Of a stretch of 33,696 bases of DNA, positions 1 through 26,839 are shown one piece after another (position 1 is the stretch's first letter; every line of letters starts with the position of its first letter). The stretch comes from a virus. Its lineage: Duplodnaviria; Heunggongvirae; Uroviricota; Caudoviricetes. A model generated the notes under the pieces. That model was given only the letters and a program-made list of their open reading frames with translations. It ran no database searches and had not been told where the DNA came from. Both the position numbers and the translations under genes were made by a program. The stretch covers positions 1-33,696 of the IMG/VR virus record IMGVR_UViG_2690316109_000019; one strand, given 5' to 3'.

Positions 1-996
1 TTATGGACGCATTATGGACATTCCTGACACCGGGTTAAGAGTCACTGCATCTTGTAAGAAATCCGGTGCAAAGTGTGCGTAGGTCATAGTTTGCTGAATG
101 TTAGAATGACCCAGGATGCGCTGCAATGTGATTATGTTACCTCCATTCATTATAAAATGTGTGGCAAATGTATGCCTCAAAACATGCACTGCCTGTCCGT
201 CAGGTAAATCGGGTTTTACTTCCCTGAGAGCGTTGCGCACTTTGTAGTAACTGGCATTAAAAAGCCTGCCTGAATTTTTGGTCTTGATCCGTTTAATCAG
301 GTCCTGCGAAACGGGAATTGTCCTGCGCTTTCCGTTTTTAGTTTTCATAAACGTAACCATCTGGTTAATGATGTGTTCAGCTTTTAAATTAGACACTTCA
401 CTCCAGCGTCCACCAGTAGAAAGGCAGACCAGAGTCGCATTTAATTCATCACCATCGAGCATGGATAACAGCCGTGTAATCTCTTCACTGGACAAAAAAG
501 CCATTTCTGTAACAGCTTCACGTAATCGCTTAACCTCACGGAACGGGTTGTGAGAATGGTATTCACCGGCGTCAATTAACTTGGTGAACATCCCGCTCAT
601 TATTGCCAGATGCCGATTTACGCTGGCTGGTTTTAGACCATCGTTCATCATTACAACGCGATAATCAGTTATCGTTTTCTTTGTTAGCTGGTCAGCTCTG
701 GACACTCCCATTTCTGCAAATTTGGCGATTATTGTCGTCAAACGCCCCCGTTCAATATCTCCACGCTCATGTGATTTTCCGTGATATATCCACCATCTGC
801 CTAACAACTCTGTAAGAGTTCGGCGGTCGGCTGGCTTCTCCAGCCACTCTTTGTTGTGGTAGTTAACCAGTACATGACGTTCGAATGCTTGAGCTTCACC
901 TTTAGTTTTAAATTTCCGCCTGATACGTTTTCCATCTGCACCCTGCGGTCTGACGTCCACTTCATAACGACCATCATCGAGCTTTTTAATAGACAT
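1..996 (-). CDS. int: Phage integrase, tyrosine recombinase (P2 Int-like); complete, stop codon at window positions 1-3
   Basis: 331-aa ORF; C-terminal catalytic region with 'HVLRHTFATHF' and 'LGHSNIQQTMTYAHF' (R-H-R-Y tyrosine recombinase signature); sits next to the repressor gene as in P2. Confidence 0.93.
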   Translation of the reverse strand: MSIKKLDDGRYEVDVRPQGADGKRIRRKFKTKGEAQAFERHVLVNYHNKEWLEKPADRRTLTELLGRWWIYHGKSHERGDIERGRLTTIIAKFAEMGVSRADQLTKKTITDYRVVMMNDGLKPASVNRHLAIMSGMFTKLIDAGEYHSHNPFREVKRLREAVTEMAFLSSEEITRLLSMLDGDELNATLVCLSTGGRWSEVSNLKAEHIINQMVTFMKTKNGKRRTIPVSQDLIKRIKTKNSGRLFNASYYKVRNALREVKPDLPDGQAVHVLRHTFATHFIMNGGNIITLQRILGHSNIQQTMTYAHFAPDFLQDAVTLNPVSGMSIMRP

Positions 997-1089: not shown

Positions 1090-1401
1090 TCAGCCAGTCT
1101 TTTGGTCTGAGTGGTGCAAGGTTGTTGAGTCTTGCCCAATGTGCGCGAGCGCCGGGGCTATTTGTCCGCCAGCGGGATCAGTTTCATCAAACATGAACCA
1201 GTCACGGTACTTGCGAAATCTTTCAGGCTTGAAAAATTTCATGCCTGCGTCAAAAGACATCTTTACTTTTCCCTGCTCATATCCAGCATAGGTGTTGTAG
1301 TTAATTCCAGTTAATTCAGCAACTTGCTTCCTTGTCATTCTTTCTGACTCCCGAATAAGTGCGAGTTTCTCTGCTTGAGATGTGATTTGTGTATTTGACA
1401 T
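1090..1401 (-). CDS. C: Immunity repressor, P2 C-type, with helix-turn-helix
   Basis: 103 aa from the internal ATG (MSNTQ...); HTH segment 'MTRKQVAELTGINYNTYAGYEQG'; C-terminus '...GQIAPALAHIGQ...SDQKTG' resembles P2 C as recalled; same strand as int and divergent from the early operon. Confidence 0.8.
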   Translation of the reverse strand: MSNTQITSQAEKLALIRESERMTRKQVAELTGINYNTYAGYEQGKVKMSFDAGMKFFKPERFRKYRDWFMFDETDPAGGQIAPALAHIGQDSTTLHHSDQKTG

Positions 1402-1432
1402 GAATTGTCGTATCTCGTAATTTATGTTGTAT
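1395..1432 (+). promoter_or_regulatory. Putative early promoter Pe with two 8-bp direct-repeat operator half-sites
   Basis: TTGACA at 1395-1400, 17-bp spacer, TAATTT at 1418-1423; direct repeats TGTCGTAT (1406-1413) and TGTTGTAT (1425-1432) flank the -10, matching the direct-repeat operator arrangement described for P2 C repressor. Confidence 0.4.
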
Positions 1433-1505
1433 GCGACACACCAGAACAACGCAGAGCGGCTTCAAATAGCTCTGGTTGAATGGCACCAAAGTTGAGGATA
1501 TCAAA

Positions 1506-2603: not shown

Positions 2604-2816
2604 ATGCATACAGTTTCTGAAAATCAGTGCGGTAAATACGCATTAATGCTGCAACAGGCCAGAACCGAAGCACAGGTCGATGCAGCAACGCGCTTTTCGT
2701 CTCATCTTGATGCCATGATTCGCCACATCACAAAGGCGGAGTTATCCCGCGTGGAGATAGTCGAGTTGCTCAGTCAGGAGTCTGCCAAATTCCATAATCT
2801 AGGACTCAATAAATAA
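2604..2816 (+). CDS. Hypothetical early protein
   Basis: 70-aa ORF with a GGAGAAA ribosome-binding site; part of the tightly packed early operon. Confidence 0.55.
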
Positions 2817-2830
2817 CAGGGAAGTTGGAG

Positions 2831-3076
2831 ATGACAAATACAAAATGGTTCAGGAAACGCTTAACAGATTATCAACTTTCATTACTTAAAAAATTAGATG
2901 ACAAGACTCCACTACATCCTTCAAGCGATGTCTTCCGCTCCTGTCCTAGTCGTGTGGAAAAAGCATTTATAGCAATGGGGAAATGGGGGCTTGTGACCAA
3001 ATCAAGAGAAGGTTTCTGTATTACCGATAATGGCCGGGAAATGATTGATTCTGCGGAGAGGGCATATAGCGAATGA
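2831..3076 (+). CDS. Hypothetical early protein
   Basis: 81 aa from the ATG at 2831; ribosome-binding-site-like GGGAAG upstream. Confidence 0.55.
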   Translation: MTNTKWFRKRLTDYQLSLLKKLDDKTPLHPSSDVFRSCPSRVEKAFIAMGKWGLVTKSREGFCITDNGREMIDSAERAYSE

Positions 3077-3363
3077 AAAATATATTGCTTAATAACTGGC
3101 TGAAGATTTCAGTCATGAAAAATGGTGATTTGTCGCTAGCTGATATTAAACGCGATAAAAACACTGGGGATATGGTGGAATCAACTATAGCCATTTATGC
3201 GGATAAATTAAATCTCCTGTCTGATGTGGTCAATTTACTTGTTAAACGCGCTGTATTTCATAAGCAAATTTCATCCGTGGATGAGCTGACAAAATTAACG
3301 ACAGAAATCGCCAGTTATTGCGCTGATGAATTTAAGAAACTGAACGACAAAAGGAACTGGTAA
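3073..3363 (+). CDS. Hypothetical early protein
   Basis: 96-aa ORF; ATGA start/stop overlap with the upstream gene (translational coupling). Confidence 0.55.
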   Translation: MKNILLNNWLKISVMKNGDLSLADIKRDKNTGDMVESTIAIYADKLNLLSDVVNLLVKRAVFHKQISSVDELTKLTTEIASYCADEFKKLNDKRNW

Positions 3364-3587
3364 TGCCGGACAACGTAGATTTTATTCAGGAACAACAGGC
3401 TGAATTACTGGAGCGCCAGATTAACGCGGCAAGGGTAAAACATTGCTGTGCTTCTGCGCTGGTTTGCGAAGAGTGTGATGCGCCAATACCTGCTGCCCGT
3501 CGTGCGGCTTATCCGTCAGCCACGCGTTGTGTTTCCTGCCAGTCAGTCTTTGAAGCAAAAAACAAGCATTACCGGAGAATGGCATGA
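3363..3587 (+). CDS. TraR/DksA-family C4 zinc-finger protein
   Basis: 74 aa with four cysteines in 'CEECDAPIP...RCVSC' (CxxC-N17-CxxC), typical of phage TraR/DksA-like proteins; TAATG overlap with the upstream gene. Confidence 0.75.
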   Translation: MPDNVDFIQEQQAELLERQINAARVKHCCASALVCEECDAPIPAARRAAYPSATRCVSCQSVFEAKNKHYRRMA

Positions 3588-3862
3588 GTATTCGTATCGA
3601 AATTGGCGAACGTTATGTCGTTACCAGTGACAGCTTTCAGTTTATTCTCCACGAGAAAAAGAGAGCGGAAAGCGGTAAAAACGCCGGTCAGGAATGGCTG
3701 GCGGTGGTTGGTTATTACCCGAAATTAAGCCAGCTCGTTTCCGGCCTGATGCATCACGATATTCTGACCGGAAGCGCAAAGTCTTTTGCTGATTTAAACG
3801 CGCAGGTTGAGCAAATTAGTCAGCAATGTCTGACTGCATTTAACCATAAGTTCAGCCAATAA
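3584..3862 (+). CDS. Hypothetical early protein
   Basis: 92-aa ORF; ATGA overlap with the upstream gene. Confidence 0.55.
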   Translation: MSIRIEIGERYVVTSDSFQFILHEKKRAESGKNAGQEWLAVVGYYPKLSQLVSGLMHHDILTGSAKSFADLNAQVEQISQQCLTAFNHKFSQ

Positions 3863-3876
3863 GCAGGGGACAGGTC

Positions 3877-4695
3877 GTGAATAACGTTGTTCATTACCAC
3901 GGAACTCCTGTGTGGGGTGATGCAGGAAATGTTCATCGTATTGCTGTGAGTGGTGCAGGGGCATTTGTTTCCTATGCCCGGCCTGACCAACTCGTTGCCT
4001 CATTTAAACATGCTAAGTCCGTGGCGATTGATAATGGGGCTTTTTCAGCATGGAAAAGTGGCCTTGTTATCGACTGGCAGAAGTTTTATCAGTGGATTGC
4101 CCCTCATTATTATCATCCCAAACTGGCTTTCTTTGTCATACCTGATGTGGTGGACGGGGATGAGGCGGACAACGATGCGCTGATTAAAGCGTTGCCTCGT
4201 TGTTTTAGAGAAAAAGCTACTCCAGTCTGGCATCTGCATGAATCCTTGCAACGCCTTGTCGAACTTTGCCGGGAATGGCCTCGTGTTTGTTTTGGTTCTT
4301 CTGGCGATTACGCCACTGTCAGAACTGCACTCTGGCATAGCCGGATGCAGGATGCATTTGAAACCATTTATCTTAAATATGGTTTTAGTACCCGCATTCA
4401 TGGTCTGCGCATGCTTGATGGGCGCATTCTCGGTAATTATCCGCTGCATACAGCAGACAGCACTAACCTTGCCTGTAACGTACCAAAATATCTTATCAAA
4501 TATCCCGAACTGACAAGGGCAATCAGCGAGGCAGACTATACACAAAAACTTTCTGAGAAGGAGTTGAAGGCGTTCATCCTTAAAGGACGGTGTGCAATTC
4601 TGAAAAATTCTGTGGAGTCGGTTTTTCCTCCATCGATTGCTGAATGGGCATCAAATAGCCTTGCTCCATCACAAATGGAGTTAGCTTTCGCATGA
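3877..4695 (+). CDS. Putative TGT-fold protein, DpdA-like 7-deazaguanine DNA transglycosylase candidate
   Basis: 272 aa from a GTG start with an AGGGGA ribosome-binding site; motif pattern 'YHGTPVWG ... AFVSYARPDQ ... AIDNGAFSAW ... TADSTNL' parallels tRNA-guanine transglycosylase 'FMPVGTYG ... LGNTFHLWLRPGQ ... LTDSGGFQ ... DCVMPTRN' (from memory); stop overlaps the start of gene A (ATGA). Confidence 0.5.
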   Translation: MNNVVHYHGTPVWGDAGNVHRIAVSGAGAFVSYARPDQLVASFKHAKSVAIDNGAFSAWKSGLVIDWQKFYQWIAPHYYHPKLAFFVIPDVVDGDEADNDALIKALPRCFREKATPVWHLHESLQRLVELCREWPRVCFGSSGDYATVRTALWHSRMQDAFETIYLKYGFSTRIHGLRMLDGRILGNYPLHTADSTNLACNVPKYLIKYPELTRAISEADYTQKLSEKELKAFILKGRCAILKNSVESVFPPSIAEWASNSLAPSQMELAFA

Positions 4696-6905
4696 CGATT
4701 TATGCTTACTCCTGGAACAAACCAAATGAAGCAATAGGACGCGAAAGATCTCTTACACGTGACGAGATGCGTCAGGTGCAAGGTGTTTTATCCACGATTA
4801 ACCGCCTGCCTTACTTTTTGCGTTCGCTGTTTACTTCACGCTATGACTACATCCGGCGCAATAAAAGCCCGGTGCACGGGTTTTATTTCCTCACATCCAC
4901 TTTTCAGCGTCGTTTATGGCCGCGCATTGAGCGTGTGAATCAGCGCCATGAAATGAACACCGACGCGTCGTTGCTGTTTCTGGCAGAGCGTGACCACTAT
5001 GCGCGCCTGCCGGGAATGAATGACAAGGAGCTGAAAAAGTTTGCCGCCCGTATCTCATCGCAGCTTTTCATGATGTATGAGGAACTCAGCGATGCCTGGG
5101 TGGATGCACATGGCGAAAAAGAATCGCTGTTTACGGATGAGGCACAGGATCACCTCTATGGTCATGTTGCTGGCGCTGCACGTGCTTTCAATATTTCCCC
5201 GCTTTACTGGAAAAAATACCGTAAAGGACAGATGACCACGAGGCAGGCATATTCTGCCATTGCCCGCCTGTTTAACGATGAGTGGTGGACCCATCAGCTT
5301 AAAGGCCAGCGTATGCGCTGGCATGAGGCGTTACTGATTGCTGTCGGGGAGGTCAATAAAGACCGTTCACCTTATGCCAGTAAACATGCCATTCGTGATG
5401 TGCGTGCGCGCCGCCAGGCAAATCTGGAGTTTCTTAAATCGTGTGACCTTGAAAACAGGGAAACCGGCGAGCGCATCGACCTTATCAGTAAGGTGATGGG
5501 CAGTATTTCTAATCCTGAAATTCGCCGGATGGAGCTGATGAACACCATTGCCGGTATTGAGCGTTACGCCGCTGCAGAGGGTGATGTGGGGATGTTTATC
5601 ACGCTGACCGCGCCGTCAAAGTATCACCCGACACGTCAGGTCGGAAAAGGCGAAAGTAAAACCGTGCAGCTTAATCACGGTTGGAACGATGAGGCATTTA
5701 ATCCAAAGGATGCGCAGCGTTATCTCTGCCGTATCTGGAGCCTGATGCGCACGGCATTCAAGGATAATGATTTACAGGTCTACGGTTTGCGTGTCGTCGA
5801 GCCACACCACGACGGAACGCCGCACTGGCATATGATGCTTTTTTGTAATCCACGCCAGCGTAACCAGATTATCGAAATCATGCGTCGCTATGCGCTCAAA
5901 GAGGATGGTGACGAAAGAGGAGCCGCGCGAAACCGTTTTCAGGCAAAACACCTTAACCGGGGCGGTGCTGCGGGATATATCGCGAAATACATCTCAAAAA
6001 ATATCGACGGCTATGCACTGGATGGGCAGCTCGATAACGATACCGGCAGACCGCTGAAAGATACTGCCGCGGCTGTTACCGCATGGGCGTCAACGTGGCG
6101 CATTCCGCAATTTAAAACGGTTGGCCTGCCGACAATGGGGGCTTACCGTGAACTACGCAAATTGCCTCGCGGCGTCAGCATTGCTGATGAGTTTGACGAG
6201 CGCGTCGAGGCTGCACGCGCCGCCGCAGACAGTGGTGATTTTGCGCTGTATATCAGCGCGCAGGGTGGGGCAAATGTCCCGCGCGATTGTCAGACTGTCA
6301 GGGTTGCCCGTAGTCCGTCGGATGAAGTTAACGAGTACGAGGAAGAAGTCGAGAGAGTGGTCGGCATTTACGCGCCGCATCTCGGCGCGCGTCATATTCA
6401 TATCACCAGAACGACGGACTGGCGCATTGTTCCGAAAGTGCCGGTCGTTGAGCCTTTGACTTTAAAAAGCGGCATCGCCGCGCCTCGGAGTCCTGTCAAT
6501 AACTGTGGAAAGCTCACCGGTGGTGATACTTCGTTACCGGCTCCCACACCTTCTGAGCACGCCGCAGCAGTGCTTAATCTGGTAGATGACGGTGTTATCG
6601 AATGGAGTGACCCGGAGGTAGTGATGGTGCTCAGGGGCGCATTAAAACACGGACTGAGAACACCAAATCGTCAGCAAAGAAACGGAATCCCGTTAAAACC
6701 GCATGAAATTGCACCATCTGCCAGACTGACCAGGTCTGAACGATTGCAAATTACCCGTATCCGCGTTGACCTCGCTCAGAACGGTATCAGGCCGCAACGA
6801 TGGGAGCTTGAGGCGCTGGCGCGTGGCGCGACCGTAAATTATGACGGGAAAAAATTCACGTATCCGGTTGCTGATGAGTGGCCGGGGTTCTCGTTACCCA
6901 TTTGA
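4692..6905 (+). CDS. A: Replication initiation protein (rolling-circle nickase, P2 gpA family)
   Basis: 737 aa; HUH-type metal motif 'PHWHMMLF'; paired tyrosines in 'AKYISKNIDGYALDG'; size and position as in P2. Confidence 0.93.
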   Translation: MTIYAYSWNKPNEAIGRERSLTRDEMRQVQGVLSTINRLPYFLRSLFTSRYDYIRRNKSPVHGFYFLTSTFQRRLWPRIERVNQRHEMNTDASLLFLAERDHYARLPGMNDKELKKFAARISSQLFMMYEELSDAWVDAHGEKESLFTDEAQDHLYGHVAGAARAFNISPLYWKKYRKGQMTTRQAYSAIARLFNDEWWTHQLKGQRMRWHEALLIAVGEVNKDRSPYASKHAIRDVRARRQANLEFLKSCDLENRETGERIDLISKVMGSISNPEIRRMELMNTIAGIERYAAAEGDVGMFITLTAPSKYHPTRQVGKGESKTVQLNHGWNDEAFNPKDAQRYLCRIWSLMRTAFKDNDLQVYGLRVVEPHHDGTPHWHMMLFCNPRQRNQIIEIMRRYALKEDGDERGAARNRFQAKHLNRGGAAGYIAKYISKNIDGYALDGQLDNDTGRPLKDTAAAVTAWASTWRIPQFKTVGLPTMGAYRELRKLPRGVSIADEFDERVEAARAAADSGDFALYISAQGGANVPRDCQTVRVARSPSDEVNEYEEEVERVVGIYAPHLGARHIHITRTTDWRIVPKVPVVEPLTLKSGIAAPRSPVNNCGKLTGGDTSLPAPTPSEHAAAVLNLVDDGVIEWSDPEVVMVLRGALKHGLRTPNRQQRNGIPLKPHEIAPSARLTRSERLQITRIRVDLAQNGIRPQRWELEALARGATVNYDGKKFTYPVADEWPGFSLPI

Positions 6906-7165
6906 GTAAAAACACAACGTGATTTGATATGGCATTGAATGGCTTATGCGGAGCAGTTATGGGGCAGCAGAAGGTCAATAGCATGCTGAATTAGAAGGCT
7001 AAATGCTATTGAGTGACTAGCATGTCGGTAAGGACAGCCGTTTGATCCGGGTCATAAAAGGCCATCCATTTAGTCTAATAAAATCATTGCGGGTAACCTT
7101 ATGTCGACGCATAATTCGTCTTGAGCGAAGTCTTGTCAGTCTTTCATCGTATTGATGATGGGCGC

Positions 7166-7197
7166 AAAAAAACCACCCTGGCAGGTGGTTTTTTTGT
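7166..7197. terminator. Bidirectional rho-independent terminator
   Basis: 'aaaaaaaccaccctggcaggtggttttttt': GC stem accacc/ggtggt flanked by an A7 run and a T7 run, so it can terminate both the A operon and the minus-strand small ORF. Confidence 0.7.
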
Positions 7198-7207
7198 TTG
7201 AAGCATA

Positions 7208-7321
7208 TTAAAGCATAATGCTGACATTGATATTACTGACGTTTACTGACAAACCACTCGGACTACCGTTTGGATAGCCAAAGAGGGCCAGAACGAGAAT
7301 GCAGTAATAGCATTTCTTCAT
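7208..7321 (-). CDS. Small hydrophobic protein (37 aa), function unknown
   Basis: Perfect AGGAGG ribosome-binding site 5 nt upstream of the ATG (reverse complement of 'catattgcctcctg' at 7319-7332); peptide MKKCYYCILVLALFGYPNGSPSGLSVNVSNINVSIML; terminator immediately downstream. Confidence 0.5.
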   Translation of the reverse strand: MKKCYYCILVLALFGYPNGSPSGLSVNVSNINVSIML

Positions 7322-7799
7322 ATTGCCTCCTGTAAGTAGAGGGCAACTTCCACCGGTATATGCGCTTCTTAGGTGGAATGACTTTTGAGCGAAGTCTTGC
7401 CCTGAAATAATGCTCTGTTTAAACGCAAAGTGATTTGGCATATCACCGAACAGAGAGCCGGAAAAACACAACATATAGTATGTCGTTGTTTCTAGACATA
7501 CATTCTATGTTGTGTAACAAGGGCTTTGCATTAAACATGTTTGAGATTTTATTGATGTAGCTCAAAGTAAAAAACAGAGACTACGGATGATAAGGTCTTG
7601 AAAGCAATGTAAATTTTTTAAAGTTGCCAATTGCTTAAAAATGTACAGTTGCGGTATGGCGTACTTAAAAAGCTATGCATGCAACCAGTGAATGTTTTTG
7701 CATGCGCTGGGGATGTCCGTTCAGGCTGCGTGCGGTCAGGACTGGTGCGGATCCATAGTATCTATGCAACTGCATTAAAACCGCCCCGTGAAGCGGGCG

Positions 7800-7818
7800 G
7801 GCGAGGCGGGGAAAGCAC
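7800..7818. other. cos site: P2-type 19-nt cohesive-end sequence
   Basis: Exact match to GGCGAGGCGGGGAAAGCAC, recalled as the P2 cohesive end; lies between gene A and portal gene Q as expected for a P2-like prophage. Confidence 0.7.
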
Positions 7819-7911
7819 TGCGCGCGAGGCCTGCAACCACCAGTGTCATCTTTTTGGAAATATGCTAAAGTATTCATAAGGTTGGATATCTGGCGTACAG
7901 TGAGATAGTTT

Positions 7912-9240
7912 ATGCGTATAAAAATTAATAATTTTGGAACTATTGCAGAAGCTGATGTTTCAGTTGGTGGTTTAACTGTCATAACTGGTGAAAATGATAC
8001 GGGGAAGAGTACCGTAGGGAAAATATTGTTTTCAATGGTAAAGGCGATATCTCGTTATCAAGAGGATTTAGAAGAAGACAAAGAGGATAGAATTACATCT
8101 ATCGTAGAGAAAATATATTTTAATCTGCGTAGGAGGATTAATATTGCTGCTACGCCGGAAATTAGAGAGTTATTCAATCCAAGAAAGTTTTATGCCTCTC
8201 TAAAAATAGATATCTCTAAAACTTTGGCTGAGAGAGAGAGTTATCTATATAATTTGATTGAGGAAGGGCTTCTTCCAGAATTGATGGCTGATTCTGTACT
8301 CTCTGATATAAGAAAAATCAGAGATATAATGCTTGAGCCAGATGATGAGCTATCTGCTATCAACCGTGCTCTGCGTAAGGCCTTTTACTCTGAATTTAGA
8401 GGCGAAATTATTCAGAAGGGTAATCAAAATCCAGTTAAAGCATCTCTGGAAGTTGTTGATGGTGTTAGTCAGTTAATTGATATTAAATGGACTAAAGATG
8501 GTATATCACAATTTGATTATACTGATGGCTTAGGATATGTCGACGCAACCTATGTTGACTCTCCAAGTATTATGCAATTTCATAATTTGGTTCGTTTTGC
8601 TAAAACTTTATTTGATAGTAATGGTGAATCAGGACGTCTAACTGTTCCATTGCATGTGAAAGATCTATCAATAAAATTAAGCGATTCAGTTTATAATTTA
8701 TTTGTGCATTCGGATATTTTTGATGATGGCTCATTTTTAAAAGAGTCACTGCGTATATCTAACAAAATCAATGCTACTTTCTGTGGTGAAGTGGTTTATG
8801 ATATTGAAAAGAATGATTTTTTTCTAGAGAAGCAAGGCTATAAAGTCACATCGGGTAATATTGCGTCAGGAATAAAGTCTTTAGGTATTCTTGATATGCT
8901 TGTTAAGTGCGGGGCAGCAGTAGATAACTCGTTACTGATTATTGATGAGCCAGAGGTGAACTTACATCCAAAATGGCAGGTTTTCTATGCTGAGATTATT
9001 TGTGAGTTAGTGTCTATGGGGGTTGATATAATAATTACAACACATAGCCCGTATATTATTGATGCTCTTAAACATTATAGCGATAAAATTGGGATTGAAA
9101 ATCGGTTCTATATAAGCGAGCGATTCCCTGGGGAAGAGTTTACATCTTTTGTTGATATTACTGATAATGTTGCATATGCAATTAATCTTTTGGCATCACC
9201 ATTAAAAGAATTGAATCAGGAGTATTTGGATGATTTCTAA
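7912..9240 (+). CDS. ABC-type (AAA_15/AAA_21-like) ATPase, candidate defence-system component
   Basis: 442 aa; Walker A 'GENDTGKST' at residues 26-34; ABC-signature-like 'VTSGNIASG'; Walker B 'LLIIDEPEVNLHP'; H-loop 'IITTHSPYIID'; about 300 residues inserted between Walker A and Walker B, as in SMC/RecF-like defence ATPases; AT-rich relative to the phage backbone. Confidence 0.85.
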   Translation: MRIKINNFGTIAEADVSVGGLTVITGENDTGKSTVGKILFSMVKAISRYQEDLEEDKEDRITSIVEKIYFNLRRRINIAATPEIRELFNPRKFYASLKIDISKTLAERESYLYNLIEEGLLPELMADSVLSDIRKIRDIMLEPDDELSAINRALRKAFYSEFRGEIIQKGNQNPVKASLEVVDGVSQLIDIKWTKDGISQFDYTDGLGYVDATYVDSPSIMQFHNLVRFAKTLFDSNGESGRLTVPLHVKDLSIKLSDSVYNLFVHSDIFDDGSFLKESLRISNKINATFCGEVVYDIEKNDFFLEKQGYKVTSGNIASGIKSLGILDMLVKCGAAVDNSLLIIDEPEVNLHPKWQVFYAEIICELVSMGVDIIITTHSPYIIDALKHYSDKIGIENRFYISERFPGEEFTSFVDITDNVAYAINLLASPLKELNQEYLDDF

Positions 9241-9847
9241 TGAGGAACTTGTTTTTAGAAAACTGTGTGAAGTATACCCTGATTCAATGGTTGATGTAAC
9301 CGGATTAAGCTACAATGATGCAGGGGCTCGGAATTTTATTATTTGTGATTCGAAGGGCTTTAACTATGATACGGTGTTAAATTGCTCGCCTGTTTATAAG
9401 CGTGAGTTTAAAGAAAAATCACCGGATGCTTTATTTTTATATGAAGATAAATTGTACTTCATTGAATTTAAAGAAGGACGTTCACAAAAGGATGATATAA
9501 GGTTGAAAATACATGAAGGTGTTACGACTTTATTTCATTTTGTATGTAAACACCTTCCAGAGTTGACAAGGCAAAATTTTGTAGAGCTTAATTTAAATTA
9601 TGCTGTCGTTTGTAGAGCTAGTGGACATAGAGATATGCGCAGTTCGGCAATGATTGCTGCTCTTGAGAACTCAAGTCAGCGATACAGCTTGAAAAATCTT
9701 GAGGGATTTATAATCAAGAAAACAGCAGTCATGGAGGAGCCTCAACAAATATTGAAGTTCCTTAACAAAATAAGTGCCGGAAAAGTAACATCGATTACTG
9801 TGTTTGAACACTTGGGGCAAACAGAAACGTTTTGCCTATCTGCTTGA
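9230..9847 (+). CDS. Partner protein of the ATPase (205 aa), possible nuclease effector
   Basis: AGGAG ribosome-binding site 8 nt upstream; 11-nt overlap with the ATPase gene (operon); possible degenerate HNH-like segment 'CKHLP...NLNYAVVCRASGH' or PD-(D/E)xK-like 'YEDKLYFIEFK'; neither motif is confirmed. Confidence 0.7.
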   Translation: MISNEELVFRKLCEVYPDSMVDVTGLSYNDAGARNFIICDSKGFNYDTVLNCSPVYKREFKEKSPDALFLYEDKLYFIEFKEGRSQKDDIRLKIHEGVTTLFHFVCKHLPELTRQNFVELNLNYAVVCRASGHRDMRSSAMIAALENSSQRYSLKNLEGFIIKKTAVMEEPQQILKFLNKISAGKVTSITVFEHLGQTETFCLSA

Positions 9848-9882: not shown

Positions 9883-10902
9883 TTATAACGAGTAATTGTT
9901 AAATGTTATAACTGTTTCACCTATCCATGAGTTCAATTCCTTCATTCGCGATTGTAGATGCCCTAACTCATTCCTGACAAAAACTTTAGCCGCTTTAACT
10001 ACATCGCCAAATCCTCCCGCATTATTAGGCATCATCCCCATCATTTGCGGGGGGACTCGATGGGCACTCATTAGATCTTCCGCGCTGGCTTTTTTGATAT
10101 TAAAAAAATCGTCCTTCGTCGCCACTTCACTGAGCGGGATAATTTTAATGCCGTCGGCTTTTCCCTGTGGGGCATAGAGAAACAGATTTTTAAAGTTGTT
10201 GCGGCCTTTCGACTTGACCATGTTTTCGCGAAGCATTTCGATATCGTTGCGGTCCTGCACGGCATCAGTGACGTACATGATGTATCCGGCATGTGCGCCA
10301 TTTTCGTAATACTTGCGGCGGAACAGCGTGGCCGACTCATTCAGCCAGGCAGAGTTAAGGGCGCTGAGATATTCCGGCAGGCCGTACAGTTCCTGATTAA
10401 TATCCGGCTCCAGCAGGTGAAACACGGAGCCGGGCGCGAAGGCTGTCGGCTCGTTGAAGGACGGCACCCACCAGTAAACATCCTCTTCCACACCACGGCG
10501 GGTATATTTTGCCGGTGAGGTTTCCAGCCTGATAACTTTACCGGTGGTGCTGTAACGCTTTTCCAGAAACGCATTACCGAACACCAGAAAATCCAGCACA
10601 AAGCGGCTGAAATCCTGCTGGGAAAGCCACGGATGCGGGATAAATGTCGACGCCAGAATATTGCGTTTGACGTAAATCGGTGAGCTGTGATGCACGGCAG
10701 CACGCAGGCTTTTTGCCAGACCGGTAAAGCTGACCGGTGGCTCATACCATCTGCCGTTACTGATGCATTCGACGTAATCCAGAATGTCACGGCGGTCGAG
10801 TACCGGCACCGGCTCGCCAAAGGTGAATGCCTCCATTTTCGGGGTGCTGGCGGTCATTTTTTTTGCCGCAGGTTGCGGTGTTTTCCCTTTTTTCTTGCTC
10901 AT
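9883..10902 (-). CDS. Q: Portal protein
   Basis: 339 aa; positioned next to cos and the terminase gene; ATGA overlap with P; P2 gpQ-like size. Confidence 0.9.
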   Translation of the reverse strand: MSKKKGKTPQPAAKKMTASTPKMEAFTFGEPVPVLDRRDILDYVECISNGRWYEPPVSFTGLAKSLRAAVHHSSPIYVKRNILASTFIPHPWLSQQDFSRFVLDFLVFGNAFLEKRYSTTGKVIRLETSPAKYTRRGVEEDVYWWVPSFNEPTAFAPGSVFHLLEPDINQELYGLPEYLSALNSAWLNESATLFRRKYYENGAHAGYIMYVTDAVQDRNDIEMLRENMVKSKGRNNFKNLFLYAPQGKADGIKIIPLSEVATKDDFFNIKKASAEDLMSAHRVPPQMMGMMPNNAGGFGDVVKAAKVFVRNELGHLQSRMKELNSWIGETVITFNNYSL

Positions 10903-12674
10903 CAGTAAAACTCCAGAATGGTGGATGTCAGCGGGGTGCTGATACCGGCGGTGAGTGGCTCATTTAACAGGGCGTGCATGGTCGCCCAGGCGAGGTCGGC
11001 GTGGCTGGCTTCCTCGCTGCGGCTGGCCTCATAGGTGGCGCTGCGTCCGCTGCTGGTCATGGTCTTGCGGATAGCCATAAACGAGCTGGTGATGTCGGTG
11101 GCGCTGACGTCATATTCCAGACAGCCACGGCGAATAACGTCTTTTGCCTTGAGCACCATTGCGGTTTTCATTTCCGGCGTGTAGCGGATATCGCGCGCGG
11201 CGGGATAGAACGAGCGAACGAGCTGGAACACGCCGACACCGAGGCCGGTGGCATCAATTCCGATGTATTCGACGTTGTATTTTTCGGTGAGTTTGCGGAT
11301 GGATTCAGCCTGGGTGGCAAAGTCCATGCCTTTCCACTGGTGACGCTCAAGTATTCTGAATTTGCCACCGGCCACCACCGGCGGTGCCAGCACCACGCAT
11401 CCGGCACTGTCGCCACGGTGTGACGGGTCGTAACCAATCCATACCGGACGTGAGCCGAACGGATTGGCGGCAAACGGCGCATAGTCTTCCCATTCTTCCA
11501 GCGTGTCGACCATGCAGCGTTGCAGCTCCTCGAACGGGAACACCGACGCCTTGTCGTCAACAAATTCACACATGAACAGGTTTTTAAAATCGTCGGCGCT
11601 GTTTTCACGTTTGAGCTGCTCAATGTCGAACAGTGTGCAGCCACCTTTCAGGGCATCCTCAATGGTGACAATCTGCCGCCACTGGCCGTCCGCACAGAGA
11701 AGACCACCGGCAAGGGCGTTATGACTGACGTCGATTTCCACGCGTTCGGCGGCGCTGGCGCGTCCCCGGTTGAACAGTTCACCTGACCAGAACGGGTAGG
11801 CGTCGTGCGCCAGCGTGGACGGGGTGGAGAAATAGGTCGAGCGCAGGTGACTCTGTGAGGCCATACCTGATGCCACCTTACGCAGTACCTGAAAATTCGG
11901 GATCCAGAAAATCTCGTCGACGTACAGGTCGCCGTTATGGCTCTGCGCGGTGTTGGAGTTGGTGCCGAGAAAAATTAGTTTTGCGCCGTTATTGCCCAGG
12001 ACAATCGGGTCACCGGTCAGGTCAACGTCAACCAGACGGGCAAAGGCGATGATGTATTCGCGGAACACATACGCCTGCGTTTTACTGGCCGACAGAAAAA
12101 TCTGGTTATGGCCGGTTTTCAGGGCGCGCAGCAGCGCCTCGCGGGAAAAATAAAACGTTGCGCCAATCTGGCGGGATTTCAGTATATCGCGGATGCGGTG
12201 CTCAAGCCCGGCGCGATACCAGTGCAACTGATAGTCGAAAGACTGCTCAAAGAAAATCTGCTCCAGCTTTTCGATGGCTTCGTCACTGAAAAAATTCTTT
12301 TTCGGTTTGCGACGCTCGCCTTTGTTGCGGTTAGCGACGTTCGGATTAAGGTCTGCCTCGTTGCCGGTCTGACTGTAGCGGTTTACCCGTGCCAGTCGTT
12401 CAATCTGGCGTCCGAGCAGGTCAATTTCCTTGAAGTCACCGCCGGTTTTCTGCGGTTTGATGATGAGCTGGGTCAGCCGCGCTTCCAGGCTCATTTCGAC
12501 ACGGCTGATGGGGGCAACGCTGTCCCAGCCGTCGCGCTGTTTCCAGCTCTGCACCGTCGGGCGTTTCATCTGCAACATGGCGGCAATCTGCGGCACGGAA
12601 AACCCCTGCCAGTACAGCAGCGCCGCCTGACGACGCGGGTCGTGTAAAAGAGTGGTGTCTGTGGTGATGGTCAT
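10902..12674 (-). CDS. P: Terminase large subunit (ATPase)
   Basis: 590 aa from the ATG at 12674 (GAGGT ribosome-binding site), the same length as P2 gpP; divergent from O across a late-promoter region. Confidence 0.9.
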   Translation of the reverse strand: MTITTDTTLLHDPRRQAALLYWQGFSVPQIAAMLQMKRPTVQSWKQRDGWDSVAPISRVEMSLEARLTQLIIKPQKTGGDFKEIDLLGRQIERLARVNRYSQTGNEADLNPNVANRNKGERRKPKKNFFSDEAIEKLEQIFFEQSFDYQLHWYRAGLEHRIRDILKSRQIGATFYFSREALLRALKTGHNQIFLSASKTQAYVFREYIIAFARLVDVDLTGDPIVLGNNGAKLIFLGTNSNTAQSHNGDLYVDEIFWIPNFQVLRKVASGMASQSHLRSTYFSTPSTLAHDAYPFWSGELFNRGRASAAERVEIDVSHNALAGGLLCADGQWRQIVTIEDALKGGCTLFDIEQLKRENSADDFKNLFMCEFVDDKASVFPFEELQRCMVDTLEEWEDYAPFAANPFGSRPVWIGYDPSHRGDSAGCVVLAPPVVAGGKFRILERHQWKGMDFATQAESIRKLTEKYNVEYIGIDATGLGVGVFQLVRSFYPAARDIRYTPEMKTAMVLKAKDVIRRGCLEYDVSATDITSSFMAIRKTMTSSGRSATYEASRSEEASHADLAWATMHALLNEPLTAGISTPLTSTILEFY

Positions 12675-12847
12675 GAATACCTCGCCGTGATGAATACACG
12701 GCAAGGCTACTGAGTCGCGCCCCGCGATTCGCTAAGGTGCTGTTGTGTCAGCGATAAGCCATCCGGGACTGATGGCGGAGGATGCGCATCGTCGGGAAAC
12801 TGATGCCGACATGTGACTCCTCTAATCACTATTCAGGACTCCTGACA

Positions 12848-19151: not shown

Positions 19152-20225
19152 TTACTTGCCATTTTTCAATGCGTTGATTAACGATGCTATTTGTTCAATA
19201 CCATCAAATGTAGATGGTATCTTATCATCGGATAGCATGATGTTTGAAAATACTACGTCTTCAAATTTTGAAAGCGCTTCCGGATTGTTTTTCCTTATCT
19301 CTGAGGAATAGTCGCTATAACTCTGAATGAACTGACAAAGGCTCTTTCTGAGTTCTATTTGCATAATCTGAGTTCGTAACGATATATGATTTATCAGTAC
19401 AACTCTAAAGTAATACATAAAAATCAATGTAACTGATGCAAAAGGTAGTGCTGACATAAAATATGTGGCAGCATTTGTCGTTTCGAGAGTTGGTAATTTA
19501 TGCATTCCATAGTATATCAGCGGGGAGGGAATGATTATAGCCAAGATGATAAGAATTATTCTTGATAGCATGATTTCACTTTCTTTCTTTTTGCCAAGTG
19601 AATTAAAGCCATCAAACAATCCAACAAAATTAAATGCGACCTCATACCCTTTTAATGACTCTTTAATTGACTCTATTTTGGCATGTTGCTCCTTTAAGAA
19701 GGAGTCGCACTTTTCGAAAAATTGACGCCCTTCGTTTAAACTATCAATGTATTTTTTATATGTGTCAACATTGCTGGAGCTTAAAACTTCTTTAACCATT
19801 GCTAATGGCAGTTCTCTAAGAGAAAAGTCTATCTGTGCTCTGCTCCGCTCATCGAATTCATTATAGTTATACAGAGCAAAATCCTTGATGGTTCTTAGTG
19901 GTGAAAAGTGAGACTCTATTTCCGGAGAGAGAATGCTTGGTTCAATGATAAATCTAAAAAAGCAAGTGAATATAAGGTTGATGCTGTTGTTATCTTCCCC
20001 CTTTTCTCTTAAGAAACTTTTAAAGGTGTCGCCAATCATAGCAATGTTGTACTGGGATTTTTTGTCCCAATCTTCAGGGTTTTCGGAAATGAAGTTTATT
20101 GCTTGAGCAATTATTTTGTTTCTGTTTGATTCAAAGTTTGTGCTGGGAGTCAGCGTGTTCAAAAAGACCAGATAATCTTTGAACAATTCTTTCATTGTTT
20201 CTGACGAGAAAAAGTAAGTACTCAT
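19152..20225 (-). CDS. AT-rich membrane-anchored cargo protein at the P2 orf30 position, function unknown
   Basis: About 357 aa from ATG 20225 (alternative ATG at 20195); soluble N-terminal region followed by two hydrophobic helices ('IMLSRIILIILAIIIPSPLIYYG', 'YFMSALPFASVTLIFMYYFRVVLINHI') and a C-terminal tail; antisense to the flanking late genes. Confidence 0.7.
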   Translation of the reverse strand: MSTYFFSSETMKELFKDYLVFLNTLTPSTNFESNRNKIIAQAINFISENPEDWDKKSQYNIAMIGDTFKSFLREKGEDNNSINLIFTCFFRFIIEPSILSPEIESHFSPLRTIKDFALYNYNEFDERSRAQIDFSLRELPLAMVKEVLSSSNVDTYKKYIDSLNEGRQFFEKCDSFLKEQHAKIESIKESLKGYEVAFNFVGLFDGFNSLGKKKESEIMLSRIILIILAIIIPSPLIYYGMHKLPTLETTNAATYFMSALPFASVTLIFMYYFRVVLINHISLRTQIMQIELRKSLCQFIQSYSDYSSEIRKNNPEALSKFEDVVFSNIMLSDDKIPSTFDGIEQIASLINALKNGK

Positions 20226-20311
20226 AATGGATTTTGTTGTCCCTTGTTGTTCTGTGCACCAGAAATCGTGGTGTGATTTACTTCGAGATTGTACAGAATC
20301 ATTATTATCGA

Positions 20312-20941
20312 ATGAATGCACAATACAATGAAATTCTTCGCTTTATACGCAATATGATTCGCACTGGCATTATCGTCGAAACCGACCTTAATGCCGGTCG
20401 CTGCCGTGTGCAGACCGGCGGCATGTGCACCGACTGGCTTCAGTGGCTGACCCATCGCGCTGGGCGTTCGCGCACATGGTGGGCACCTTCCGTGGGGGAA
20501 CAGGTGCTGATTCTGGCCGTGGGCGGTGAACTCGACACGGCGTTCGTTCTGCCGGGGATTTATTCCGGCGATAACCCAGCGCCGTCTGCGTCGTCTGATG
20601 CCCTGCATATCCGTTTCCCTGACGGGGCGGTGATTGAGTATGAACCCGAAACCAGTGCACTCACGGTAAGCGGAATTAAAACGGCCAGCGTGACGGCTTC
20701 TGATTCTGTTACTGCCACGGTGCCGGTGGTCATGGTGAAAGCGTCAACCCGCATCACCCTGGACACACCGGAGGTGGTCTGCACCAACAGGCTGATTACC
20801 GGCACGCTGGAAGTACAGAAGGGCGGGACGATGCGTGGCAACATTGAACACACCGGCGGTGAACTCTCATCAAACGGGAAGGTACTGCATACCCATAAAC
20901 ACCCCGGCGACAGCGGCGGCACAACCGGGAGTCCTCTATGA
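20312..20941 (+). CDS. V: Baseplate spike / assembly protein V
   Basis: 209 aa from ATG 20312; P2 gpV size; C-terminal Gly-rich 'HKHPGDSGGTTGSP'. Confidence 0.88.
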   Translation: MNAQYNEILRFIRNMIRTGIIVETDLNAGRCRVQTGGMCTDWLQWLTHRAGRSRTWWAPSVGEQVLILAVGGELDTAFVLPGIYSGDNPAPSASSDALHIRFPDGAVIEYEPETSALTVSGIKTASVTASDSVTATVPVVMVKASTRITLDTPEVVCTNRLITGTLEVQKGGTMRGNIEHTGGELSSNGKVLHTHKHPGDSGGTTGSPL

Positions 20942-25873: not shown

Positions 25874-26839
25874 ATGACCAGTATATTTATATCCTATGCC
25901 AGAGAAGACTTTTTAATTGCAAAAAAACTAACCGAAGAACTAAATCGACATGAGTACAAGGTGTTTTTGGATCAACAATCGATTCAGCTTGGGGCTCATT
26001 GGCAAGAAGATATACTGAAGCATTTAAAAAATGCGGATGTATTTATCGCACTTGTTACTGAACATAGCGATAAGTCTTATTATTTTAATGCAGAGGTTAC
26101 TGGCGCTATATCCTATGTAGCTCATAGCAATCGGGATAAACTTATTTTGCCAGTGGTGCTGGATAAAGAAGTGCTTAATGATAGCGATCTTGGGGCCTTC
26201 CAAGCATTATTCGCACGCTCTGATGATATGACATACCTCGTACATGAAATTGTGAATGCTATCAGCCGCTTCGAAGGTGCCCGACTAGCTCAGGAAGAGA
26301 TAAAAGAAATTCGAGCACAAGTTCTTAAAGATGAATCAGCCGATTACATAAGCGAAACAATTGAGGATCTTAAGGCGCGCGAAAAAGCTGGTCGCCAATT
26401 ATCGTCAAGATGGCATTTTGCTGGATATGCGGCATTAATACTTTCTGTCATTTTCGTATTTATTCTTTGGTATTTGGCTGAGCGTTCATTTGTACAATCA
26501 CCTCTTGATACCACTAGACTGGTTTTCGATGCCATTAAGGGCGTAACGGTTGTTGCGTTACTTTTGGGCTTGGCAAGATATTCATTTTTAATGGCGAAAA
26601 CTCATCAATTAGAAGCTTTGAAGAACGCCGATCGTCTGCACGCCATTTCTTTCGGGAAATTTTATATGCGCGTTTTCTCTACGCAAATATCTCAATCTGA
26701 ATTAAAAGAAGTATTTCAACATTGGAATACTTCAGGGGCGTCAGATTTGTCGCATCTTGATGTAGATAAAATTGACTCGCGATTTATTGAACTCTTTGGG
26801 AAAATTGCATCAAGATTTGATGGCAAAAATAAACCTTAA
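25874..26839 (+). CDS. TIR-domain protein with two C-terminal transmembrane helices, candidate abortive-infection / defence effector
   Basis: 321 aa; N-terminal TIR signature 'IFISYAREDF ... KVFLD ... WQEDIL ... ADVFIALVTEHSDKSYYFNAEV' with a putative catalytic Glu near residue 74; coiled-coil linker; two hydrophobic helices ('AGYAALILSVIFVFILWYLA', 'VTVVALLLGLARYSFLMA'); AT-rich, at the P2 Z/fun cargo position. Confidence 0.85.
   Translation: MTSIFISYAREDFLIAKKLTEELNRHEYKVFLDQQSIQLGAHWQEDILKHLKNADVFIALVTEHSDKSYYFNAEVTGAISYVAHSNRDKLILPVVLDKEVLNDSDLGAFQALFARSDDMTYLVHEIVNAISRFEGARLAQEEIKEIRAQVLKDESADYISETIEDLKAREKAGRQLSSRWHFAGYAALILSVIFVFILWYLAERSFVQSPLDTTRLVFDAIKGVTVVALLLGLARYSFLMAKTHQLEALKNADRLHAISFGKFYMRVFSTQISQSELKEVFQHWNTSGASDLSHLDVDKIDSRFIELFGKIASRFDGKNKP

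What the first reader, a model, noticed from the sequence alone, without database searches (positions are those of the whole stretch)
3877..4695. TGT-fold (DpdA-like) protein translationally coupled to replication gene A: possible 7-deazaguanine modification of phage DNA
Seen in sequence: a 272-aa early-operon protein whose motif order (YHGTPVWG ... AFVSYARPDQ ... AIDNGAFSAW ... TADSTNL) parallels, from memory, the tRNA-guanine transglycosylase motifs FMPVGTYG ... LGNTFHLWLRPGQ ... LTDSGGFQ ... DCVMPTRN, including both catalytic aspartate positions. It lacks the CxCxxC zinc site. Its stop codon overlaps the ATG of gene A. Established knowledge: DpdA proteins of the TGT superfamily insert preQ0-derived 7-deazaguanines into DNA, and phages use this to evade restriction; enterobacterial hosts supply preQ0 through QueC/D/E, so one phage gene can suffice. 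Inference: this prophage may modify its own DNA as an anti-restriction measure, co-expressed with replication.
Basis: partly seen in the sequence, partly recalled or inferred. Interest (0 to 1): 0.65.

Follow-up and report, generated by a model that had tools for sequence, protein, structure and literature searches.

The report
Stand-alone DpdA gene in P2-like prophage
A P2-like prophage of E. coli carries, just upstream of its replication gene, a stand-alone member of the known phage DpdA family (enzymes that swap guanine in DNA for 7-deazaguanine bases); close relatives were catalogued in 2019, and the ones tested put only traces of the modified base into phage DNA.

Summary
Window 3877-4695 (+) is a 272-aa ORF with a GTG start, and its TGA overlaps the ATG of replication gene A (ATGA). 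It contains the quoted motifs and no CxCxxC.

Pfam PF01702, NCBIfam and PDB sequence or profile searches all find nothing. The validated DpdA of phage CAjan fails the Pfam and PDB tests too, so they cannot decide. The positive evidence is:
- PHROG 887 matches at 8.8e-87, the same PHROG as CAjan DpdA.
- hhalign to the CAjan family gives 98.5% probability.
- D52, D90, H119, H175 and D194 are invariant in 75 homologues.

The protein is 78% identical to Salmonella phage SEN1 gp38, which Hutinet et al. 2019 listed as a DpdA-only phage gene.

The anti-restriction inference is weak. The tested relatives carry only 0.02% (phage 7-11) and 0.13% (MED16) of G as dADG, and no restriction protection was seen for MED16.

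Verdict: a new member of a known kind, of modest interest. About 2% of complete E. coli genomes carry a homologue. Where I checked (three P2/186-like elements) it sits directly upstream of gene A, next to Dam in ATCC 8739.

The parts
3877..4695 (+). dpdA-like gene: 272 aa, GTG start, TGA stop; stand-alone ('singleton') DpdA of the TGT superfamily
3866..3870 (+). GGGGA Shine-Dalgarno, 6 nt upstream of the GTG
   Evidence: read directly from the sequence
4030..4032 (+). codon of Asp52 in AIDNGAF; proposed general acid/base (equivalent to bDpdA D95, with F56 equivalent to F99)
   Evidence: invariant in 75/75 homologues; aligned to CAjan LDSGAFSA; role inferred from PMC10164549
4144..4146 (+). codon of Asp90 (IPDVV) at the C-terminal end of beta4; proposed base-recognition Asp (bDpdA D130)
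   Evidence: invariant in 75/75; strand position from the model; register against CAjan is ambiguous, because hhalign pairs D93 with CAjan D105
4231..4233 (+). codon of His119 (VWHLHE) at the end of beta5; proposed base-recognition His (bDpdA H181, Cap10 K154 position)
   Evidence: invariant in 75/75; aligned to CAjan H132; role inferred
4399..4401 (+). codon of His175 (IHGLRML) on beta7; proposed hydrogen-bond partner of the nucleophile (Cap10 H226 position)
   Evidence: invariant in 75/75; aligned to CAjan H187; role inferred from 10.1101/2025.04.06.647259
4456..4458 (+). codon of Asp194 (TADSTN) on beta8; proposed catalytic nucleophile (bDpdA D256, Cap10 D248)
   Evidence: D194 and S195 invariant in 75/75; aligned to CAjan CDSSS
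4692..4695 (+). ATGA overlap: ATG of gene A with TGA of dpdA (translational coupling signature)
   Evidence: the same ATGA is in Salmonella phage SEN1, and TAATG in the E. coli ATCC 8739 prophage
4692..6905 (+). gene A, rolling-circle replication endonuclease (737 aa)
   Evidence: PF05840 at 2.2e-123
3815..4739 (+). 925-bp cassette that replaces 145 bp of an otherwise 96-98% identical P2-like prophage lacking the gene. It covers the 3' end of the DUF5405 gene, dpdA and the first ~48 nt of A.
   Evidence: blastn of the window against L002; annotation of L002
3584..3862 (+). upstream early-operon gene (DUF5405, 92 aa)
   Evidence: PF17399 at 2.2e-13

Best explanation
The ORF encodes a stand-alone ('singleton') phage DpdA: a zinc-less, minimal TIM-barrel member of the tRNA-guanine transglycosylase superfamily.

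It is transcribed from the P2 early promoter together with the replication genes. Its translation is probably coupled to that of gene A, which follows it.

The proposed mechanism is inferred from bacterial DpdA and TGT. After replication the enzyme flips out a guanine in duplex phage DNA. Asp194 displaces the base and forms a covalent enzyme-deoxyribose intermediate, with Asp52 acting as general acid/base. A 7-deazaguanine base made by the host FolE/QueD/QueE/QueC pathway is then inserted. That base would be preQ0 or its amide ADG.

The prophage brings no precursor genes. On that basis, and from the two tested DpdA-only relatives, the expected result is sparse modification: roughly 3-50 bases per 33.7-kb genome (0.02-0.3% of G), most likely detected as dADG. 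This is far from the 25-100% replacement seen in phages that carry the full pathway. Whether so few marks protect against any restriction or defence system is not shown.
For: - Family: PHROG 887 'queuine tRNA-ribosyltransferase' at 8.8e-87. The validated CAjan DpdA hits the same PHROG at 8.2e-96.
- Sequence links: BLASTP to CAjan DpdA gives E 2e-5. hhalign of the 75-sequence family against the CAjan family gives 98.5% probability and E 1.8e-15 over 174 columns, with the DxGAF, H, HG and DS motifs in register.
- Structure: the AlphaFold2 model has pLDDT 95.1 and pTM 0.90, with eight alternating strands and helices.
- Foldseek against viral models: 30 hits at E<=1e-3, many named queuine tRNA-ribosyltransferase.
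- Conservation: D52, D90, H119, H175, D194 and S195 are invariant in 75 homologues down to 27% identity. All are kept in SEN1, MED16, 7-11 and HK106.
- Tested relatives: 50% identity to MED16 gp38 and 33-35% to the 7-11 protein. DNA of both phages contains dADG, at 354 and 50 per 10^6 nt, and neither phage has preQ0 genes (PMC8306585, PMC6884629).
- 9g DpdA alone in E. coli inserts preQ0 into plasmid DNA, and needs host queD (PMC6884629, PMC10516641).
- Context: no preQ0, DpdB/C, Cap9 or CD-NTase genes among the window ORFs scanned. No promoter or terminator beyond chance around the gene.
- In the 186-like prophage of E. coli ATCC 8739 the orthologue lies next to a Dam methylase.
- Expected load per genome was computed.
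Against: - No biochemical or mass-spectrometry data exist for this protein or for any P2-like orthologue.
- HMM-to-sequence methods do not link it to TGT. Foldseek against PDB gives only weak, generic TIM-barrel hits.
- The register of the second Asp (D90 or D93) against CAjan is ambiguous.
- The relatives carry dADG rather than dPreQ0, and no enzyme that would make the amide is known in them. The substrate is therefore uncertain.
- The traces in 7-11 and MED16 have not been shown genetically to depend on their dpdA genes.
Confidence: 0.65

Rival explanations
1. One reading: the single gene gives the phage effective anti-restriction protection by modifying its DNA with preQ0-derived bases.
For: Dense 7-deazaguanine modification protects phage DNA. 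CAjan, 9g and iggy are examples (PMC6884629, PMC10484667). The gene occupies the position next to, or in place of, Dam in P2/186-like prophages. About 24-33 marks per genome is the number expected if one 6-bp motif were fully modified (my inference).
Against: The tested DpdA-only phages carry only 0.02-0.13% of G modified. MED16 DNA was cut by all G-containing enzymes tested, including GA and GGC sites (PMC8306585). Plasmid dPreQ0 at 0.03-0.3% of G gave no EcoRI resistance (PMC6884629). Only about 2% of E. coli genomes carry the gene, and most related prophages lack it.
Confidence: 0.2
2. The sparse marks are site-specific and serve the phage's own DNA transactions (replication origin or nick site of A, packaging, transcription) rather than defence evasion.
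For: The gene is tightly coupled to gene A in every P2/186-like example examined. The number of marks in relatives is very low, about 9 per 7-11 genome.
Against: The same family sits in unrelated slots in lambdoid and virulent phages that have different replication systems: the nin region, near int/xis, and early regions. Most P2-like phages replicate without it.
Confidence: 0.07
3. The protein acts on something other than DNA. One option is a Cap10-like enzyme handling a 7-amido-7-deazaguanine-protein conjugate, for example to interfere with type IV CBASS. The other is a tRNA transglycosylase that alters host tRNA.
Against: There is no Cap9/QueC-like or CD-NTase gene in the window. Sequence homology is to validated DNA-modifying DpdA. 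dADG is found in the DNA of relatives' virions. The zinc subdomain and N-terminal lid that TGT uses to hold tRNA are missing.
Confidence: 0.05
4. The gene is a decaying or functionless passenger.
For: It is rare and patchily distributed. One relative, P0097, is a truncated fusion to Dam.
Against: The ORF is intact. All five catalytic-site residues are invariant across 75 homologues at 27-81% identity. The model is confident. The overlap with gene A is conserved.
Confidence: 0.03

Closest known systems
Singleton (DpdA-only) phage DpdA of gamma-proteobacterial phages: Salmonella phage SEN1 gp38 / SW9 gp39, Pantoea phage MED16 gp38, Salmonella phage 7-11 (Hutinet 2019 group 3; 'DpdA/TGT_1' cluster of the MED16 paper)
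   Same: Identity is 78% to SEN1 and SW9, about 50% to MED16 and 33-35% to 7-11. The length is the same and the invariant residues are the same. None of these phages has preQ0 genes. In SEN1 the gene holds the same position and has the same ATGA overlap with the replication gene.
   Different: It is a different allele on a P2-type (Cox/C) backbone in E. coli, whereas SEN1 has a 186-type (CI/CII) backbone. Outside the gene, DNA similarity to SEN1 is low. No chemistry has been measured for any P2-like member.
DpdA1 of Queuovirinae (Escherichia phages CAjan and 9g), experimentally validated preQ0 DNA transglycosylases
   Same: Both hit PHROG 887. hhalign gives 98.5%. The DxGAF, H, HG and DS motifs align. 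Both lack the zinc site and both lack a Pfam PF01702 hit.
   Different: Identity is only 24% over the barrel core, and the C-terminal ~70 residues are unrelated. DpdA1 is encoded with FolE/QueD/QueE/QueC and replaces 25-32% of G. Here there is no pathway, and traces are expected.
Bacterial DpdA of the Dpd restriction-modification system (Salmonella Montevideo, PDB 7ui4)
   Different: bDpdA is 413 aa and has a structural Zn site and the large insertion Ins8. It needs the DpdB ATPase, and DpdC makes dADG (PMC10164549). None of these is present here.
Cap10 of type IV CBASS (PDB 9ntn)
   Different: Cap10 works on a CD-NTase N-terminus together with Cap9 inside a defence operon. This gene is solitary in a phage replication operon. 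No sequence-level similarity to Cap10 was detected.
Bacterial tRNA-guanine transglycosylase Tgt (PF01702)
   Different: No HMM-level similarity. About 100 residues shorter. No zinc subdomain. The expected substrate is DNA, not tRNA.

Membership tests
Phage DpdA (DNA 7-deazaguanine transglycosylase, TGT superfamily) | Significant sequence or profile similarity to an experimentally validated DpdA | tested here: met
   Same PHROG 887 as CAjan DpdA. BLASTP E 2e-5. hhalign 98.5%, E 1.8e-15. 50% identity to MED16 gp38 and 33-35% to the 7-11 protein.
Phage DpdA (DNA 7-deazaguanine transglycosylase, TGT superfamily) | TGT-type (beta/alpha)8 barrel | tested here: met
Phage DpdA (DNA 7-deazaguanine transglycosylase, TGT superfamily) | General acid/base Asp followed by the gate Phe (bDpdA D95...F99; TGT 'DSGGFQ') | tested here: met
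   D52 is invariant in 75/75 and F56 is F or Y in 75/75. AIDNGAFSA aligns to CAjan FLDSGAFSA.
Phage DpdA (DNA 7-deazaguanine transglycosylase, TGT superfamily) | Nucleophile Asp on the last barrel strand (bDpdA D256) | tested here: met
   D194 and S195 are invariant in 75/75, lie on strand 192-195, and align to CAjan CDSSS.
Phage DpdA (DNA 7-deazaguanine transglycosylase, TGT superfamily) | Base-recognition Asp (bDpdA D130) and signature His (bDpdA H181) | tested here: inconclusive
   D90 and H119 are invariant and sit at the ends of beta4 and beta5. H119 aligns to CAjan H132. hhalign, however, pairs D93, not D90, with CAjan D105. No coordinates were available for a superposition.
Phage DpdA (DNA 7-deazaguanine transglycosylase, TGT superfamily) | Gene-dependent 7-deazaguanine in DNA | not testable with these tools
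   This needs LC-MS/MS of virion or plasmid DNA. Only relatives have been measured (PMC6884629, PMC8306585).
tRNA-guanine transglycosylase Tgt / Pfam PF01702 | Match to the Pfam TGT model | tested here: not met
   No hit for the protein or for any of 75 homologues at E<=10. Validated CAjan DpdA also has no hit, so this excludes Tgt proper, not DpdA.
tRNA-guanine transglycosylase Tgt / bacterial DpdA | Structural zinc site (CxCxxC...H) | tested here: not met
   No CxCxxC or CxxC, and no conserved Cys. It is also absent from CAjan DpdA and Cap10.
Bacterial Dpd restriction-modification system | Partner genes dpdB (ParB-like ATPase), dpdC and the dpdD-K restriction module nearby | tested here: not met
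   The neighbours are P2 early genes and gene A. No such domains appear in the ORFs scanned. The late structural genes were not all scanned.
Type IV CBASS Cap10 | Operon with Cap9 (QueC-like) and a CD-NTase carrying an M(G/S)G(G/S)GG N-terminus | tested here: not met
   No such genes in the window. The gene lies in a phage replication operon.

The most novel reading that the evidence does not exclude
The DpdA-only clade is not a weak version of the preQ0 enzymes but a distinct, sequence-specific writer. It would insert the amide base ADG directly, using the free intermediate of host QueC, at one rare motif. That would give a few dozen fully modified sites per genome. The enzyme would then act like an orphan methyltransferase, sharing the pre-replication-gene slot with Dam in P2/186-like prophages, and would protect against one class of motif-reading defence. 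This would explain three things: 7-11 and MED16 carry dADG without a DpdC-like hydratase; the counts (about 9 and 33 per genome) match full occupancy of a 6-7-bp motif; and the closest solved structure is the ADG-binding Cap10.
Probability: 0.15. Interest if true: 0.6.

Novelty: new member of a known kind. Interest (0 to 1): 0.3.

Why it matters
The result shows that stand-alone DpdA genes are a recurrent but uncommon cargo of P2/186-like prophages in E. coli. About 2% of complete genomes carry one, including the laboratory strain ATCC 8739. Where examined, the gene sits at one fixed position directly upstream of the replication gene.

These inducible prophages in a genetically tractable host would be a convenient system for a question left open since 2019. 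What do DpdA-only phages actually put in their DNA, from which host precursor, at which sites, and does it protect them?

For annotation, the result explains why RefSeq calls these genes 'hypothetical protein': no Pfam or NCBIfam model reaches them.

Tried and rejected
- Pfam, NCBIfam and PADLOC scans of the protein gave no hits. A Pfam scan of all 75 homologues gave no PF01702 hit.
- phmmer and profile hmmsearch against PDB sequences found only noise. The control with the validated CAjan DpdA family also found nothing, so these tests cannot decide.
- hhalign against a two-sequence TGT profile (E. coli plus Z. mobilis) failed for both my family and the CAjan control. The profile was too thin, and I had no deep TGT or bacterial DpdA alignment.
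- I looked for a conserved partner gene next to the homologues in MED16, 7-11, HK106, a lambdoid prophage, SEN1 and ATCC 8739. None is shared. Dam is adjacent only in the 186-like prophages.
- I looked for the gene's own promoter or terminator and found nothing above shuffled expectation. GC content does not differ from the neighbouring early genes.
- An Rfam scan of the window gave no hits.
- The Cap10-like, tRNA-directed and pseudogene readings were considered and ranked low for the reasons given under rivals.
- Literature search found no paper linking P2-like phages to DpdA beyond the SEN1/SW9 listings. The 2026 survey of P2-like viruses does not contain the search terms DpdA, deazaguanine or queuine tRNA-ribosyltransferase.

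Full report
**1. The observation**

The window is a complete P2-like prophage. Its landmarks are:
- integrase at 1-996 (-)
- an HTH repressor at 1090-1449 (-)
- Cox at 1476-1862
- DUF2732, two DUF5405 genes and a TraR/DksA zinc finger at 2604-3862
- gene A at 4692-6905
- portal and terminase at 9883-12704 (-)
- tail genes, gpD and Ogr at the right end

ORF 3877-4695 (+) is 272 aa. It starts at the first available start codon, a GTG, 6 nt after a GGGGA Shine-Dalgarno. It ends with a TGA that overlaps the ATG of A, reading GCATGACG. All four quoted motifs are present, and there is no CxCxxC or CxxC. No promoter or terminator above shuffled expectation surrounds the gene, and its GC content matches the neighbouring early genes. 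It is therefore an internal gene of the early operon.

**2. Is it a TGT/DpdA-type protein?**

- Pfam, NCBIfam and PADLOC give nothing.
- None of 75 homologues touches PF01702.
- phmmer and a family profile find no TGT or DpdA chain in the PDB.

These failures do not decide the question. The DpdA of phage CAjan is validated: deleting it abolishes dPreQ0 (PMC6884629). It also lacks any Pfam hit, and its family profile also misses the PDB TGT/DpdA chains. A thin two-sequence TGT profile missed both families in hhalign.

The positive evidence is as follows.
- PHROG 887 'queuine tRNA-ribosyltransferase' matches at 8.8e-87. CAjan DpdA hits the same PHROG at 8.2e-96.
- Direct BLASTP to CAjan DpdA gives E 2e-5.
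- hhalign of a 75-sequence alignment of the family (A1) against a CAjan-type alignment (A2) gives 98.5% probability and E 1.8e-15. The motifs AIDNGAFSA/FLDSGAFSA, VWHLHE/CFHxGE, IHGLRM/VHGFGI and ADSTN/CDSSS are in register.
- An AlphaFold2 model built on A1 has pLDDT 95.1 and pTM 0.90. It shows eight alternating strands and helices plus a helical tail from about residue 200.
- Foldseek against viral models gives 30 hits at E<=1e-3, many annotated queuine tRNA-ribosyltransferase. The DpdA2 of Vibrio phage nt-1 appears lower, at 6e-3.
- Foldseek against PDB was weak and generic.

**3. Active site**

D52, A55, D90, H119, H175, D194 and S195 are invariant across 75 homologues down to 27% identity. 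F56 is F or Y in all of them. These residues are also kept in SEN1, the ATCC 8739 prophage, MED16, 7-11 and HK106.

In the model they lie at the C-terminal ends of strands beta3, beta4, beta5, beta7 and beta8. I compared this with the published active sites of bacterial DpdA (D95 acid/base, F99 gate, D130 and H181 base recognition, D256 nucleophile; PMC10164549) and of Cap10 (D73, D122, K154, H226, D248). From that comparison I assign:
- D52/F56 = acid/base and gate
- D90 and H119 = base recognition
- H175 = hydrogen-bond partner of the nucleophile
- D194 = nucleophile

This assignment is an inference from strand order and spacing, because I had no coordinates to superpose. hhalign pairs D93 rather than D90 with the CAjan Asp.

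The zinc site is absent here, in CAjan DpdA and in Cap10. It is a feature of Tgt and bacterial DpdA, not of phage DpdA.

**4. Which DpdA, and what is known about it**

tblastn against phages gives the following:

| Phage | Identity | Note |
|---|---|---|
| Salmonella phages SEN1 and SW9 (Peduoviridae) | 78% | gene directly upstream of the replication gene |
| Pantoea phage MED16 | 52% | DpdA-only phage |
| Salmonella phage 7-11 | 35% | DpdA-only phage |
| BTP1, SPN3UB | 41% | over residues 4-202 only |

In global alignments the values are 78.3% (SEN1), 50.4% (MED16) and 32.7% (7-11).

Hutinet et al. [quoted passage not shown] Their Supplementary Data 1 lists SEN1 YP_009217891, HK106, SfI, SPN3UB, BTP1 and 7-11. 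The MED16 paper names SEN1 gp38 and SW9 gp39 as the closest viral homologues of MED16 DpdA, and reports HHpred 99.18% to T. maritima TGT. The family assignment of this exact orthologue group is therefore already published.

The measured chemistry of the group is sobering.
- Phage 7-11 DNA carries dADG at 50 per 10^6 nt, which is 0.02% of G, and no dPreQ0.
- MED16 carries dADG at 354 per 10^6 nt, which is 0.13% of G. It was cut normally by all G-containing restriction enzymes tested.
- Mycobacteriophage Orion, whose host makes no preQ0, carries none.
- 9g DpdA expressed alone in E. coli puts dPreQ0 into 0.03-0.3% of plasmid G without EcoRI protection.

Scaled to this 33.7-kb genome (50.5% GC), those rates mean 3-53 modified bases per genome.

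**5. Genomic setting**

I compared the window with a 96-98% identical P2-like prophage that lacks the gene (L002). Window 3815-4739 (925 bp) replaces 145 bp. The swapped cassette therefore brings the last codons of the DUF5405 gene, dpdA and the first ~48 nt of A.

Counts among 5,426 complete E. coli genomes:
- 3 carry this allele at >=99% identity.
- 103 carry a ~70% identical allele (106 genomes in total, about 2%).

In ATCC 8739 that second allele lies in a 186-like prophage in the order TraR/DksA - Dam methylase - DpdA - A. Of 1,242 genomes with that TraR-Dam-A backbone, 102 have dpdA in the slot. Most have nothing there. Single examples have a PAPS-reductase-domain gene or a DUF3850 gene instead.

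The stop/start overlap with A is kept: ATGA in the window and SEN1, TAATG in ATCC 8739.

In lambdoid phages the family sits in other accessory regions: after NinB, or near xis/int. In MED16 and 7-11 it lies among small early genes. No partner gene is shared across these contexts, which is consistent with an enzyme that works alone.

**6. Mechanism and rivals**

Best explanation (confidence 0.65): a stand-alone DpdA made early in the lytic cycle together with the replication protein. It exchanges a small number of guanines in newly replicated phage DNA for a host-made 7-deazaguanine base, preQ0 or ADG, by the double-displacement chemistry of TGT and DpdA.

What is shown here:
- family membership
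- fold
- conserved catalytic residues
- operon position
- absence of precursor genes

What is inferred:
- the substrate
- the level of modification
- any benefit to the phage

Lower-ranked rivals are a site-specific role in the phage's own DNA transactions, a Cap10-like or tRNA-directed activity, and a decaying passenger.

The most novel reading not excluded is that this clade directly writes ADG at one rare motif to full occupancy, acting like an orphan methyltransferase. That would fit three facts: dADG without a hydratase, about 9-33 marks per genome in the relatives, and Cap10 as the nearest structure. I give it 0.15.

**7. Verdict**

The protein is a new member of a known kind and is close to already known, since the SEN1 orthologue was catalogued in 2019. 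Interest is 0.3.

Its value is practical. These are inducible prophages in E. coli, including ATCC 8739. They offer a tractable system to settle what DpdA-only phages do, and the family lacks any Pfam or NCBIfam model, so RefSeq annotates it as hypothetical.

Noticed in passing
window 7912-9847 (+): A two-gene, low-GC (0.33-0.35) cargo sits between gene A and the portal gene, the P2 old/tin hotspot. It consists of a 442-aa AAA_15/AAA_21 ATPase and an overlapping 205-aa ORF. The ATPase's best PADLOC models are HEC-02A at 1.8e-33 and PD-T4-4_A at 1.7e-30. The 205-aa ORF has no Pfam or PADLOC hit. This is a likely anti-phage defence pair with an uncharacterised effector.
   Followed up: partly
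window 25874-26839 (+): A 321-aa protein with an N-terminal TIR_2 domain (PF13676 at 6.4e-21) gives weak PADLOC hits to PDC-S66 and ThsB-like models. It lies between the tail-fibre genes and the ORF at 27094-28284, which I take to be the tail-sheath gene by position only. The slot corresponds to the P2 Z/fun accessory locus (my knowledge of P2). Probably a defence moron.
   Followed up: partly
window 19152-20321 (-): A 389-aa ORF lies on the opposite strand inside the late (tail/baseplate) gene block. It has no Pfam or PADLOC hit. The position corresponds to the P2 orf30 accessory slot (my knowledge of P2).
   Followed up: partly
window 6906-7911: About 1 kb downstream of gene A has only short ORFs on either strand, the longest being 105 aa at 7665-7982 (-). 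GC is 0.37-0.45 and there is no Rfam match. Its content is unexplained.
   Followed up: no
L004:4124-5805 (E. coli ATCC 8739, 186-like prophage); H88 and H96: The slot between Dam methylase and gene A in 186-like prophages is polymorphic. It is empty in most genomes and holds dpdA in 102 of 1,242. A PAPS-reductase-domain gene or a DUF3850 gene occupies it in single listed examples. It may be a small hotspot for DNA-modification or counter-defence cargo.
   Followed up: partly
L010:5001-6266 (Logan SRR27214370 contig): P0097 is a 421-aa fusion. The N-terminal ~190 residues are a D12-class Dam methylase (PF02086), joined to DpdA residues 44-271. It lies in a 186-like prophage directly before gene A. 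It lacks the first two barrel strands and is seen on a single contig, so it is probably a deletion between adjacent dam and dpdA genes.
   Followed up: partly
L010:772-2505 (-): The same 186-like prophage carries an AAA_15/AAA_21 ATPase plus a DUF4276 protein between the integrase and the CI repressor. This is another likely defence pair at a prophage end.
   Followed up: no
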